A DNA stretch of 64,000 nt from the human T2T-CHM13v2.0 reference genome, Homo sapiens. The stretch lies in assembly GCF_009914755.1 (NCBI RefSeq), contig NC_060926.1; one strand, given 5' to 3'. Below the pieces are notes generated by a model. It was not told the origin of the DNA. It saw only the letters and a program-made list of their open reading frames with translations, and did not search any database. A program made the translations under genes and the position numbers. This document shows positions 1-25,714 of the stretch, in pieces (the stretch's first letter is position 1; each line of letters opens with the position of its first letter).

Positions 1-132
1 TTTAGTAGAGATGGGGATTTCACCATGTTGGCCAGGCATGCCAGGATGGTCTTGAACTCCTCACTTCAGGTGCTCCACCCGCCTCAGCTTCCCAAAGTGC
101 TGGGATTACAGGCGTGAGCTGCCGCTCCCGGC
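1..132 (-). mobile_element. AluS left-monomer portion, truncated by window edge
   Basis: Reverse Alu sequence (cccaaagtgctgggattacaggcgtgag...cccggcc). Confidence 0.9.
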
Positions 133-24510: not shown

Positions 24511-24801
<291 letters not shown>

Positions 24802-24941
24802 TCAATAAATAAATAAATAAATAAATAATAAAAATACCCAGAATAGGCAAATCTATAACAACAGAAAGCAGATTATTGGTTGCCAGAAGAAGGAGGGAAT
24901 GGGTATGAGGAATGACTTTGGACAGCAGCTGGTCACGACCC

Positions 24942-24991
24942 TCAGGCTTTCAATCTGAGGGTCCAGGGTTCATATCCCTGTTCAGGCACCA
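24942..24991 (+). pseudogene. 3' portion of tRNA-Lys(UUU) (tRNA-Lys3) with CCA; includes the 18-nt PBS (24974-24991) of the adjacent LTR
   Basis: tcaggctttcaatctgagggtccagggttcatatccctgttcaggcacca vs tRNA-Lys3 TCAGACTTTTAATCTGAGGGTCCAGGGTTCAAGTCCCTGTTCGGGCG-CCA. Confidence 0.92.
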
Positions 24992-24994
24992 CTT

Positions 24995-25426
24995 TGCCAC
25001 AGACCCTGGTGGACTAAACAAAGGAGGATGAATGCAGGAATAAAGACAAAGACAAAAAGATCTATTTTAAAAGAAGGGGTGAGGGGGCTCCTTGCTTCTT
25101 GTGAACAAGGACCTTGAGCTTCTATAGCCCTTCGTATTTATTGAGTAAAAGAAACTGGGAGGAGGGGGTGGTTGTAGGTCAGCTGCTTGATTTAGTGCAG
25201 GCCCGCATGACTGCTTTCTTAGAACAGTAGGCTCCAGATGTTCCATTAGATACTCTCAAGGAGCTCAGCGCCAGGGAGTGATTGCCCTCAGCATACCTTC
25301 TGGCAGCAAGCGCAGATGTGAGTTTGCTCACATCCTGTATTCATGATAAACAGTTTGCTCTTTGATCATATAGCCTCCAGTGGAATGCTGAGTTGGTCAC
25401 GACCCTCAGGCTTTTGGCTCCCAACA
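24995..25426 (-). mobile_element. LTR3 (HERV-K HML-6) LTR
   Basis: Minus strand starts TGTTGGGAGCC...GTGACCAACTCAGCATTCCACTGGAGGCTATATGATCAAA and ends GGTCTGTGGCA; a Lys3 PBS follows, as expected for HML-6. Confidence 0.85.
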
Positions 25427-25714
25427 TCCAGCAGCTTTGGGGATAATGAAAATGTTCTGTTTGGCATGAAGTACAGCAAAAACAAATAAATAAATACAAA
25501 TTAAAAATGAAAAAAAATGTTCTGGGACTAGATAGTGACCATGGTTGATAGGGATATACTTAACATAAAATGTGCAAGGCTTATATACTGAAACCTATAA
25601 AATACTGCTGAGAGAAATTAAAGAACTTAACAGAGAGTTACACCATACATATGTATCAAAAGGCTTCACATATTTAAGACATCATTTCTCCTCAAAATGA
25701 TCTGTATATTCAAT

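What the first reader, a model, noticed from the sequence alone, without database searches (positions are those of the whole stretch)
24923..25436. Fossil HML-6 reverse-transcription intermediate: LTR + PBS + tRNA-Lys3 read-through + jump back into U3
Seen, reading the minus strand: GA, a complete LTR3 (25426-24995), AAG, an 18-nt Lys3 PBS, then about 30 more nt complementary to tRNA-Lys3 through the T-arm, variable loop and anticodon loop. An exact 21-nt re-copy of the LTR's own U3 start follows (24930-24950 = 25394-25414). The whole unit lies between 8-bp direct repeats cagcagct (24923-24930, 25429-25436), with no gag leader. Established: HML-6 primes on tRNA-Lys3; plus-strand strong-stop synthesis normally halts at m1A58 after 18 nt; in HIV-1 RT assays read-through stalls at the modified anticodon loop; integrase removes a terminal dinucleotide; solo LTRs carry no PBS. 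Inference: an aberrant plus-strand strong-stop DNA copied a hypomodified primer, switched template and was captured without normal integrase processing. The extra GA would be the unprocessed end, and the 8-bp repeat is longer than the usual 5-6-bp HERV-K TSD.
Basis: partly seen in the sequence, partly recalled or inferred. Interest (0 to 1): 0.85.

Follow-up and report, generated by a model that had tools for sequence, protein, structure and literature searches.

The report
Fossil retroviral tRNA-primer read-through insertion
An ancient retroviral repeat in human chromosome 2 still carries a copy of the tRNA that primed its replication, read far past the normal stopping point and then joined back onto the repeat's own start: a rare frozen record of a reverse-transcription mistake.

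Summary
Read on the minus strand, the order is:
- an 8-bp repeat, then GA;
- a complete 432-bp LTR3 (HML-6);
- AAG and an 18-nt tRNA-Lys3 primer-binding site;
- 32 more bases complementary to tRNA-Lys-TTT, down to the 5' side of the anticodon stem;
- an exact 21-nt recopy of the LTR's own U3 (nt 13-33), then the 8-bp repeat again.

HML-6 proviruses do not carry this extension: 5 of 5 leaders diverge within two bases after the primer-binding site. No other place in this genome joins an LTR to extended Lys3 complement.

The best reading is a reverse-transcription error. Plus-strand DNA ran past tRNA position 58. It then switched templates at a 9-of-10-nt homology between the anticodon stem-loop complement and U3 nt 12-21, and was inserted with non-canonical ends.

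New here:
- A second, independent LTR3 on chromosome 12 carries LTR + start of the primer-binding site + the same U3 piece (nt 15-36). The U3 acceptor is therefore recurrent.
- The only transversion in the tRNA-derived stretch lies opposite A58 (about 2% by chance). This hints at bypass of a methylated base rather than a hypomodified primer.

Direct capture of an LTR-sized fragment cannot be told from a full-length provirus later reduced to a solo LTR. It is a new variant of a known kind, of moderate interest.

The parts
25429..25436 (-). Left (5') copy of the flanking direct repeat, AGCTGCTG on the minus strand
   Evidence: It is identical to 24923-24930. Removing the insert and one copy gives a continuous flank.
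25427..25428 (-). GA between the repeat and the LTR's TG. It matches the dinucleotide that separates the polypurine tract from U3 in HML-6 proviruses, so it is read as the unprocessed 5' end of plus-strand DNA.
   Evidence: The 3'-LTR junctions of L007, L008 and L019 read ...GGGAGA|TG or ...GGGGGAGA|T; L025 reads ...GGGAAA|TG. That is 3 of 4. The chance of GA is 1 in 16.
24995..25426 (-). Complete LTR3 (HML-6/HERVK3 LTR), 432 nt, TG...CA
Evidence: 81-90% identity to the 41 other matches (40 scored of 409 candidates); end-to-end alignments; star-like tree, end branch 0.086.
24992..24994 (-). AAG spacer between U5 and the primer-binding site, as in HML-6 proviruses
   Evidence: L003, L015, L022 and L023 have AAG at the same place, and L027 has AG.
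24974..24991 (-). 18-nt primer-binding site complementary to the 3' end of tRNA-Lys-TTT, including CCA
   Evidence: TGG is the complement of CCA, which genes do not encode. The piece therefore derives from a mature tRNA or from the viral primer-binding site.
24942..24973 (-). Read-through: complement of tRNA-Lys-TTT nt 58 to 27 (T arm, variable loop, anticodon stem-loop). 24973 is the A opposite A58. The last nine bases (24950-24942) are shared with U3.
   Evidence: tRNA-Lys genes match query 44-89 at 89-91% (one to 93%); reference genes; differences listed by tRNA position.
24927..24950 (-). Recopy of the LTR's own U3: nt 13-33 exact (24950-24930), nt 13-36 with one mismatch
   Evidence: family D1; 3 of 29 other LTR3 copies are also identical over nt 13-33, so the piece is U3-derived but cannot be assigned to this particular copy.
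24923..24930 (-). Right (3') copy of the flanking direct repeat, AGCTGCTG

Best explanation
This is the endogenised product of a reverse-transcription error of an HML-6 betaretrovirus, some tens of millions of years old.

1. Plus-strand DNA primed at the polypurine tract began with GA-TG and copied U3-R-U5. It then copied the AAG spacer and the 3' 18 nt of the tRNA-Lys3 primer still attached to the minus strand.
2. It did not stop before position 58. It bypassed A58, probably with a misincorporated dA, and copied on through the T arm, the variable loop and the anticodon stem-loop.
3. There its 3' end (AAAAG-T-CTGA, tRNA nt 36 to 27) matched U3 nt 12-21 (AAAAG-C-CTGA) at 9 of 10 positions. The strand switched onto U3 minus-strand DNA and added only 12-15 nt, to U3 nt 33-36. 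Synthesis then ended, most simply because it had to displace an existing plus strand.
4. The resulting LTR-length DNA carried a non-viral right end and an untrimmed left end. It entered the germ line by a non-canonical joining that left an 8-bp duplication instead of the family's 6 bp. The 3-of-4-nt match between U3 nt 33-36 and the start of the duplication suggests microhomology-assisted joining by host enzymes at that end.

Shown: the order, identity and boundaries of all pieces; the absence of the extension in proviral leaders; the GA match; the homology at the switch point; and the recurrence of the acceptor at a second locus.

Inferred: which strand and template were involved; bypass of a modified A58; abortive displacement synthesis; the joining route; and insertion as an LTR-sized fragment rather than as the end of a full-length DNA.
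For: - The anatomy and coordinates are confirmed.
- The tRNA part matches real tRNA-Lys-TTT genes from nt 76 to 27, with 5-6 differences in 50 nt. That fits the LTR's own end branch of 0.086 substitutions per site, so the tRNA piece is as old as the LTR.
- TGG (the CCA complement) and the AAG spacer sit exactly as in proviruses.
- 5 of 5 proviral leaders read TTCAAGGA... or TTGAGGA... after the primer-binding site, not tRNA.
- Of the 22 other matches to the junction query, none spans both the LTR end and the tRNA extension.
- Of the 29 genomic matches to the T-arm 20-mer, only the window copy adjoins an LTR.
- GA equals the polypurine-tract-proximal dinucleotide in 3 of 4 3'-LTR junctions.
- The switch point lies in a 9-of-10 homology.
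- A second locus, L004 on chromosome 12, reads TTTACA | LTR3 | CAG TGG | U3 nt 15-36 | TTTACA. It and the window are the only places in the genome where the U3 anchor recurs at LTR spacing. The two LTRs are not sisters in a star-like tree.
- The only transversion in the tRNA stretch lies opposite A58. The per-site, per-lineage transversion probability is about 0.022.
- Literature, passages only: m1A58 is needed for the plus-strand strong stop, and without it RT copies more tRNA that cannot pair with minus-strand DNA (PMC8599865). m1A is bypassed at some frequency and leaves mismatches (PMC4787781).
- There is no other LTR3 and no HML-6 internal sequence in the 64-kb window.
Against: - No tool here shows the empty orthologous site, so co-insertion rests on the 8-bp repeat alone.
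- The repeat's boundaries are ambiguous by 1-4 nt.
- An 8-bp duplication with a retained GA fits neither concerted integrase action nor simple end-joining.
- L004 has a canonical 6-bp duplication and a trimmed left end, so the two loci did not enter in the same way.
- A single-stranded 3' tail must have been made double-stranded by an unknown step.
- The common end point of the U3 piece (nt 33-36) has no demonstrated cause.
- The A58 mismatch is one site (p about 0.02) and its neighbour G59 also differs.
- An LTR-sized insertion is not distinguishable from a provirus reduced to a solo LTR.
Confidence: 0.5

Rival explanations
1. The reverse-transcription error is the same, but at the right end of a full-length linear DNA. 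The final plus strand copied a primer tRNA that had not been removed, ran past nt 58 and jumped into U3. The aberrant provirus was integrated. Later, ordinary recombination between its two LTRs left a solo LTR that kept the right-hand tail.
For: - Solo-LTR formation is the common fate of this family. 9 of 29 other loci rows show an LTR directly flanked by an exact 6-bp repeat, and 5 more show 5 of 6.
- L025 and L029 are paralogous loci sharing the downstream flank. One has a polypurine tract upstream and the other has host-like flank, which shows such conversion in this family.
- Experimental viruses with one 'bad' end are integrated with the good end joined by integrase and the other by host enzymes. 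The bad end is sometimes joined to extra viral sequence (PMC5041404, passages).
- L004's canonical left end and 6-bp duplication fit this route well.
Against: - In the window the left end also looks unprocessed (GA retained), so neither end is a 'good' end.
- No internal HML-6 sequence remains in the 64-kb window, although recombination would remove it.
- A primer that is still attached should have blocked the second strand transfer needed to make full-length DNA (PMC8599865, passage; inference).
Confidence: 0.3
2. The structure derives from an LTR-LTR (circle-type) junction or tandem-LTR form. U5 - primer-binding site/tRNA insert - U3 is the order seen at aberrant two-LTR circle junctions. 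A molecule broken 33-36 nt into the second LTR was inserted.
For: - The order U5, primer-derived insert, U3 is that of a junction with an insertion.
- Junctional insertions and deletions are described for HIV-1 circle junctions (PMC13332604, passage). Primer-binding-site and tRNA inserts at such junctions are recalled, not seen.
- Two independent loci end the second U3 at nearly the same base.
Against: - The second U3 starts at nt 13-15, not nt 1, and does so exactly where homology to the tRNA/primer-binding-site complement lies. That is what a template switch predicts and an end-to-end ligation does not.
- A circle would have to be opened twice at defined places.
- The left end begins exactly at GA-TG.
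Confidence: 0.1
3. The U3 recopy, or the whole tail, arose after insertion through a host process: templated repair, replication slippage or gene conversion. It was not made during reverse transcription.
For: The recopy is 21 of 21 identical to the LTR's U3, including an intact CpG in both copies, although the LTR's end branch is 0.086.
Against: - 3 of 29 independent LTR3 copies are also identical to the window over these 21 nt, so perfect identity is not unusual.
- The tail lies inside the flanking repeat.
- The tRNA part includes the CCA complement and starts at the proviral spacer.
- L004's two copies differ by opposite CpG decays (CA against TG), as expected of an old duplication.
Confidence: 0.05
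4. Chance juxtaposition: a solo LTR3 landed beside, or was hit by, a tRNA-Lys retro-copy or tRNA-derived repeat.
For: tRNA-Lys-TTT pseudogenes are scattered through the genome: 21 gene or pseudogene matches.
Against: - None of those 21 has the CCA complement or an adjoining LTR.
- Here the tRNA complement starts exactly 3 nt after the LTR's CA, with the proviral AAG spacer. It is in the primer orientation, stops inside the tRNA, and is enclosed with the LTR by one 8-bp repeat.
Confidence: 0.02

Closest known systems
Plus-strand strong-stop DNA and its m1A58 stop (retroviral reverse transcription; HIV-1 and MLV work)
   Same: The insert begins at the polypurine-tract-proximal dinucleotide. It runs through U3-R-U5 and continues into the primer tRNA's 3' 18 nt, exactly as strong-stop DNA does. 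PMC8599865 (passages) states that without the stop RT copies further tRNA sequence that cannot pair with minus-strand DNA.
   Different: Synthesis here went 32 nt past the stop, switched to U3 and was fixed in a germ line. The published work is in vitro or in cell culture with TRMT6-mutant cells. No endogenous fossil was found in print in my searches, which cover only the held library.
Aberrant ends of unintegrated retroviral DNA (two-LTR circle junctions with insertions or deletions)
   Same: The order is U5, primer-derived bases, U3. The terminal dinucleotide is left untrimmed.
   Different: The second U3 starts at nt 13-15 at a homology, not at nt 1, and is only 21-24 nt long. The molecule is chromosomal and flanked by a target duplication. 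I saw junctional insertions mentioned only in passages of PMC13332604. tRNA inserts at such junctions are recalled.
Aberrant integrations with one 'bad' viral end (ASLV end mutants; HIV-1 with integrase inhibitors or resistant integrase)
   Same: A non-viral or extended end is joined by host enzymes, the aberrant end is sometimes joined to additional viral sequence, and the host duplication is of non-canonical size (PMC5041404, passages).
   Different: In those experiments duplications are usually hundreds to thousands of bp, and one end is normal. In the window the duplication is 8 bp and the left end keeps GA. L004 has a normal left end and 6 bp.
Ty1 cDNA replication intermediates captured at chromosome breaks in yeast
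   Same: [quoted passage not shown]
   Different: The host (yeast), the element and the experimental breaks all differ. No target duplication is expected from break capture. tRNA read-through in those inserts was not seen in the passages I read.
tRNA-Lys3-complementary segment in HIV-1 U3 that aids minus-strand transfer
   Same: A Lys3-primed retrovirus has a U3 stretch related to its primer tRNA. LTR3 U3 nt 12-46 aligns with the complement of tRNA-Lys-TTT nt 36-4 at 27 of 35 columns.
   Different: The LTR3 similarity is statistically weak: 26 of 3000 shuffles reach the score for one isodecoder and 735 of 3000 for another. No function was tested. For HIV-1 I saw only a citing passage (PMC9757044); the primary paper is not held.

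Membership tests
LTR3 / HERV-K(HML-6) long terminal repeat | Full-length sequence similarity to the family's other genomic copies, with TG...CA ends | tested here: met
   41 other matches at 81-90% identity; end-to-end alignments, TGTTGGG...GTGGCA; it sits inside a star-like clade of 17 of the 30 rows. The name itself could not be checked against Dfam or Repbase.
LTR3 / HERV-K(HML-6) long terminal repeat | Lys3 primer-binding site 3 nt downstream of the 5' LTR in proviruses | tested here: met
   L003, L015, L022, L023 and L027 carry AAG (or AG) plus a Lys3-type primer-binding site. The window has the same spacer and site.
Ordinary solo LTR (recombination product of a canonical provirus) | LTR directly flanked on both sides by the family's 6-bp target duplication, with no primer-binding site | tested here: not met
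   There are 74 extra bases (AAG to the U3 recopy) on the right and GA on the left. The repeat is 8 bp, against an exact 6 bp in 9 of 29 other rows.
Plus-strand strong-stop DNA-derived insert | 5' end at the polypurine tract/U3 cleavage site | tested here: met
   The GA before TG equals the proviral junction dinucleotide in 3 of 4 3' LTRs. The chance is 1 in 16.
Plus-strand strong-stop DNA-derived insert | 3' end within the copied primer tRNA (normally 18 nt) | tested here: met
   The tRNA complement runs from nt 76 to at least nt 32, and matches to nt 27. That is longer than the canonical 18 nt.
Plus-strand strong-stop DNA-derived insert | Never part of a full-length provirus at this site | not testable with these tools
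   This needs orthologous loci of other primates. Only this one genome was searchable.
Canonical integrase-mediated integration (betaretrovirus type) | Both ends trimmed to TG...CA and a 6-bp duplication | tested here: not met
   The window keeps GA, its right end lies in U3 nt 33-36, and it has an 8-bp repeat. L004 meets the left-end and 6-bp criteria but not the right-end one.
tRNA gene, pseudogene or tRNA-derived SINE | Complete cloverleaf or internal promoter region; no encoded CCA | tested here: not met
   a partial tRNA model hit only, 22.4 bits against a gathering score of 29; similarity to the tRNA ends at nt 27. The CCA complement is present.
Two-LTR circle junction | U5 end joined to U3 nt 1 (plus or minus small insertions or deletions) | tested here: not met
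   The second U3 begins at nt 13 (window) or nt 15 (L004), at a homology with the donor.

The most novel reading that the evidence does not exclude
U3 nt 12-46 of the HML-6 LTR may be a tRNA-Lys3-related element, a counterpart of the tRNA-Lys3-complementary segment reported for HIV-1 U3. Because it resembles the primer's complement, it would repeatedly capture mis-extended plus strands, giving two independent germ-line fossils with the same acceptor and end point. The chromosome 2 fossil would also preserve a misincorporation opposite A58. That would be a direct sequence record that the primer tRNA carried m1A58 tens of millions of years ago and that a betaretroviral RT bypassed it in vivo. 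Such read-through-and-jump events would then be a plausible route by which primer-like sequence enters U3 at all.
Probability: 0.15. Interest if true: 0.8.

Novelty: new variant of a known kind. Interest (0 to 1): 0.55.

Why it matters
Whether m1A58 is what stops plus-strand strong-stop synthesis, and what becomes of products that run past it, has been studied only in vitro and in engineered cells (PMC8599865, passages). This locus is a natural, germ-line-fixed example of such a product. It shows how far synthesis ran (to the anticodon stem), how it resolved (a homology-guided switch into U3, then 12-15 nt), and that such DNA can still reach the chromosome.

With the chromosome 12 locus it marks a recurrent acceptor site in the HML-6 U3. 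It also gives a search template (LTR, primer-binding site, more than 18 nt of tRNA, or a short second U3) for mining other genomes for reverse-transcription errors. For genome annotation, it explains a 'solo LTR' with 74 extra bases and an atypical duplication. No effect on a host gene is suggested: none is annotated in the window.

Tried and rejected
- **Snap-back self-priming at the anticodon stem.** It would give CTGA-GGGTC and then tRNA-sense bases. The observed bases after GGGTC follow U3 for 6-7 more nt, and L004 has the U3 piece without the tRNA part. Rejected.
- **Tail as a continuous copy of the whole tRNA down to nt 14 or lower.** Ungapped identity collapses after nt 27, while U3 matches 21 of 21. 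Rejected. The gapped resemblance of the right flank (AGCTGCTGTCCA) to further tRNA/U3 sequence was judged post hoc.
- **A canonical 6-bp duplication GCTGGA/GCTGTC with a trimmed left end.** This needs two adjacent transversions plus a 4-nt coincidence. I judged it much less likely than the exact 8-mer (my arithmetic).
- **L1 endonuclease-type insertion.** There is no poly(A) and no T-rich cleavage motif at the site (by eye). Rejected.
- **A replicating sub-lineage carrying the tail.** The window and L004 LTRs are not sisters, and sequence downstream of an LTR is not inherited by progeny. Rejected.
- **A recopy younger than the LTR.** Not needed, because 3 of 29 copies are identical over the 21 nt.
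- **Genome-wide scans for more examples** found only the window and L004, plus unrelated tandem repeats on contigs 11 and 24 and 4 chance hits. The scans need exact 10-12-mers in both copies, and 348 two-mismatch hits were not listed, so decayed examples could be missed.
- **Tool limits.** The primary HIV-1 U3/tRNA papers are not held. Supplements were not consulted.
Full report
**Observation**

I read 24700-25700 on the minus strand and ran a repeat search. In element orientation the order is:
- host flank ...CCCCAA;
- AGCTGCTG (25436-25429);
- GA (25428-25427);
- a 432-nt LTR from TGTTGGG to GTGGCA (25426-24995);
- AAG (24994-24992);
- TGGTGCCTGAACAGGGAT (24991-24974);
- 32 further bases, to 24942;
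- a stretch identical to the LTR's own U3 (24950-24930 = 25414-25394, 21 of 21; 24 nt with one mismatch to 24927);
- AGCTGCTG again (24930-24923).

With U3 nt n at window position 25427-n, the recopy is U3 nt 13-33, or 13-36 with one mismatch.

**The LTR and its family**

The window's own genome could be searched. The 561-nt region found 41 other matches at 81-90% identity over the LTR part (40 scored of 409 candidates). I aligned the 432-nt LTR to the 29 other loci that were cut out and read their flanks.

- Five loci are 5' LTRs of proviruses (L003, L015, L022, L023, L027). All have the AAG (once AG) spacer and a Lys3-type primer-binding site. All then continue TTCAAGGACG... or TTGAGGA..., not tRNA.
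- Four loci are 3' LTRs preceded by a polypurine tract (L007, L008, L019, L025). Three read ...GA|T(G) and one reads ...AA|TG. The window's extra GA is therefore the expected untrimmed dinucleotide, at 1 in 16 by chance.
- Nine rows show an exact 6-bp repeat abutting TG...CA (L002, L009, L010, L011, L014, L016, L017, L021, L024). L011 and L021 are duplicates of one insertion. Five more rows show 5 of 6 (L006, L012, L013, L028, L029).
- The rest are truncated or unclear (L005, L018, L020, L026, L030), apart from L004, discussed below.

The family's duplication is thus 6 bp, and the window's 8 bp is atypical.

**The tRNA part**

I took reference sequences from real genes rather than from memory. 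The 20-mer from the T-arm/variable-loop part has 29 matches in the genome at up to 2 mismatches.
- From their flanks and ARAGORN, 21 are tRNA-Lys-TTT genes or pseudogenes, with the tRNA continuing to its 5' end and without the CCA complement.
- Seven are unrelated.
- One is the window.

Against two isodecoders (L037-type and L040-type), the window matches the tRNA complement without gaps from nt 76 to nt 27, with 6 or 5 differences:
- G73 and G69 (CpG transitions);
- G59;
- A58 (T to A, the only transversion);
- U36;
- A31.

After nt 27 ungapped identity collapses. A 104-nt junction query gave 23 matches: itself, 12 tRNA genes covering only query 43-89, and 10 LTR ends stopping at query 36-56. 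No other locus spans both. Rfam's tRNA model gives a sub-threshold partial hit (22.4 bits against a gathering score of 29). In that hit the U3-derived GGTCACGACC mimics a D arm.

**The switch point**

The tRNA complement nt 36-27 and U3 nt 12-21 differ at one of ten positions: AAAAG-T-CTGA against AAAAG-C-CTGA. The window has the U3 base C there. The strand therefore left the tRNA somewhere between nt 35 and nt 32 and continued on U3, or changed later with a T-to-C mutation. Only 12-15 new bases (U3 nt 22 to 33-36) follow.

Snap-back on the anticodon stem would explain CTGAGGGTC but not the next 6-7 bases, which follow U3.

**A second locus**

L004 on chromosome 12 reads TTTACA | LTR3 | CAG TGG | AGCCTGAGGGTTGTGACCAACT | TTTACA.
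- It consists of an LTR, the spacer (one mismatch), the first three bases of the primer-binding site and U3 nt 15-36.
- Alternatively it holds ten bases of the primer-binding site with one mismatch, because GCCTGA is shared by the primer-binding site and U3 nt 16-21.
- It lies inside a canonical 6-bp duplication, and its left end is trimmed.
- Its own U3 and the extra piece differ only by opposite decays of the CpG (CA against TG). That points to an old duplication.

Scans for the U3 anchor recurring at LTR spacing found only the window and L004. They also found unrelated tandem repeats on contigs 11 and 24 and 4 chance hits. In a tree of 30 LTRs the two are unresolved members of a star-like group, with end branches 0.086 and 0.063. 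They are therefore independent insertions.

The same acceptor (…CTGA|GGG, nt 21/22) and nearly the same end (nt 33-36) were thus used twice. L004 could also be a window-like structure that later lost 41 nt between its two GCCTGA repeats. I cannot tell the two readings apart.

**Mechanism**

Published work (passages only) says that the plus-strand strong stop needs m1A58, and that without it RT copies more tRNA that cannot pair with minus-strand DNA (PMC8599865). It also says that m1A is not an absolute block and that its bypass leaves mismatches whose composition depends on the 3' neighbour (PMC4787781).

The lone transversion opposite A58 therefore fits bypass of a methylated base.
- From 29 pairwise LTR comparisons, the per-lineage transversion probability is about 0.022 per site.
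- The coincidence is therefore about 2%: suggestive, not proof.

I infer that the short extension after the switch reflects abortive strand-displacement synthesis on U3 minus-strand DNA already covered by a plus strand. Nothing here tests that.

The right junction shows a 3-of-4 match between U3 nt 33-36 (AACT) and the first bases of the repeat (AGCT). That is compatible with microhomology-assisted joining by host enzymes. Experimental precedents exist:
- viral DNA with one bad end being inserted partly by host enzymes (PMC5041404);
- capture of LTR-region cDNA intermediates at breaks in yeast (PMC11372161).

**What stays open**

- Route. An LTR-sized strong-stop-derived fragment cannot be separated from a full-length DNA with the same aberrant right end that later became a solo LTR. 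No HML-6 internal sequence or second LTR3 is in the window, but recombination would erase it.
- Joining. An 8-bp duplication with GA retained (window) against 6 bp and a trimmed end (L004) means the two entered differently.
- Why the U3 piece ends at nt 33-36. By eye, U3 nt 20-33 (AGGGTCGTGACCA) resembles the U5 terminus (AGGGTCTGTGGCA), a possible cryptic integrase end. The junctions do not fit a concerted 6-bp event from that CA.
- Whether U3 is itself tRNA-related. U3 nt 12-46 aligns with the complement of tRNA nt 36-4 at 27 of 35 columns. Dinucleotide shuffles reach that score 26 times in 3000 for one isodecoder and 735 times in 3000 for the other. This is weak.
- The orthologous empty site could not be examined.

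**Age**

The end branch of 0.086 is matched by 5-6 changes in the 50 tRNA-derived bases. The tail is therefore as old as the LTR. With a recalled neutral rate near 2.2e-9 per site per year this is roughly 30-40 million years (inference).

The 21 of 21 identity of the recopy is not odd: 3 of 29 independent copies are identical to the window over those bases.

**Comparison and novelty**

Read-through of the primer, aberrant viral DNA ends, host-mediated joining of bad ends and capture of cDNA intermediates are all known from experiments. I did not find an endogenous LTR followed by an extended tRNA complement and a homology-guided return into U3, nor the recurrence of that U3 acceptor. They cover only the held library, most subscription-journal papers are absent, and supplements were not read.

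I file it as a new variant of a known kind. It is a genuine, well-preserved fossil of a reverse-transcription error, of moderate interest to retrovirologists and without evident consequence for the host.

Noticed in passing
L004:1487-1953 (G000 contig 12: 31,930,205-31,930,671): A second LTR3 has a short second U3 piece: TTTACA | LTR | CAGTGG | U3 nt 15-36 | TTTACA. It is inserted in another LTR-like repeat. Its left flank carries a tandem duplication of AGAGCCTGAGAAATTTACTATG, which shares GAGCCTGAG with the U3 piece.
   Followed up: yes
window 25381-25415 (U3 nt 12-46, minus strand): The start of U3 resembles the complement of tRNA-Lys-TTT nt 36-4 (27 of 35 columns). It also holds a 9-mer, CTGAGGGTC, identical to tRNA sense nt 40-48. 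By shuffling this is weak: 26 of 3000 and 735 of 3000 shuffles reach the score.
   Followed up: partly
window 25394-25407 against 24995-25007: U3 nt 20-33 (AGGGTCGTGACCA) looks like the U5 terminus (AGGGTCTGTGGCA), so it may be a cryptic integrase end. This was seen by eye only.
   Followed up: no
window 24937-24963: The tail forms a perfect 9-bp inverted repeat, GACCCTCAG / CTGAGGGTC, with a 9-nt loop (I9). One arm comes from the tRNA part and the other from U3.
   Followed up: partly
window 24700-24830: An Alu-type element with a T/A-rich tail lies just downstream of the insert. It gives sub-threshold mir-3135 and SRP RNA hits.
   Followed up: no
L025 and L029 (contig 19: 22.33 and 22.13 Mb): Two LTR3 copies are sisters in the tree (100/100) and share their downstream flank. 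One has a polypurine tract upstream and the other has host-like flank. This looks like a duplicated locus kept as a provirus in one copy and as a solo LTR in the other.
   Followed up: no
L011, L021 and contig 14: 18,190,525-18,190,950: The same LTR3 insertion is present two or three times within 80 kb on contig 14, with identical TTTTAA duplication and flanks. This is a segmental duplication.
   Followed up: no
G000 contig 11: 786,084-787,963 and contig 24: 938,291-938,839: There are tandem repeats whose units contain the U3 anchor words: a roughly 53-bp unit with GCCTGAGGGT and a roughly 30-bp unit with AGGGTTGTGACC. They are unrelated to LTR3.
   Followed up: no
L036, L040, L042 against L037, L038, L039, L043: There are two tRNA-Lys-TTT isodecoder types in this genome. 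They differ at nt 4 and 69 (C/T and G/A), and some also at nt 17. The T-type matches the window's primer-binding site and the U3 similarity better, but CpG decay could produce the same bases.
   Followed up: partly
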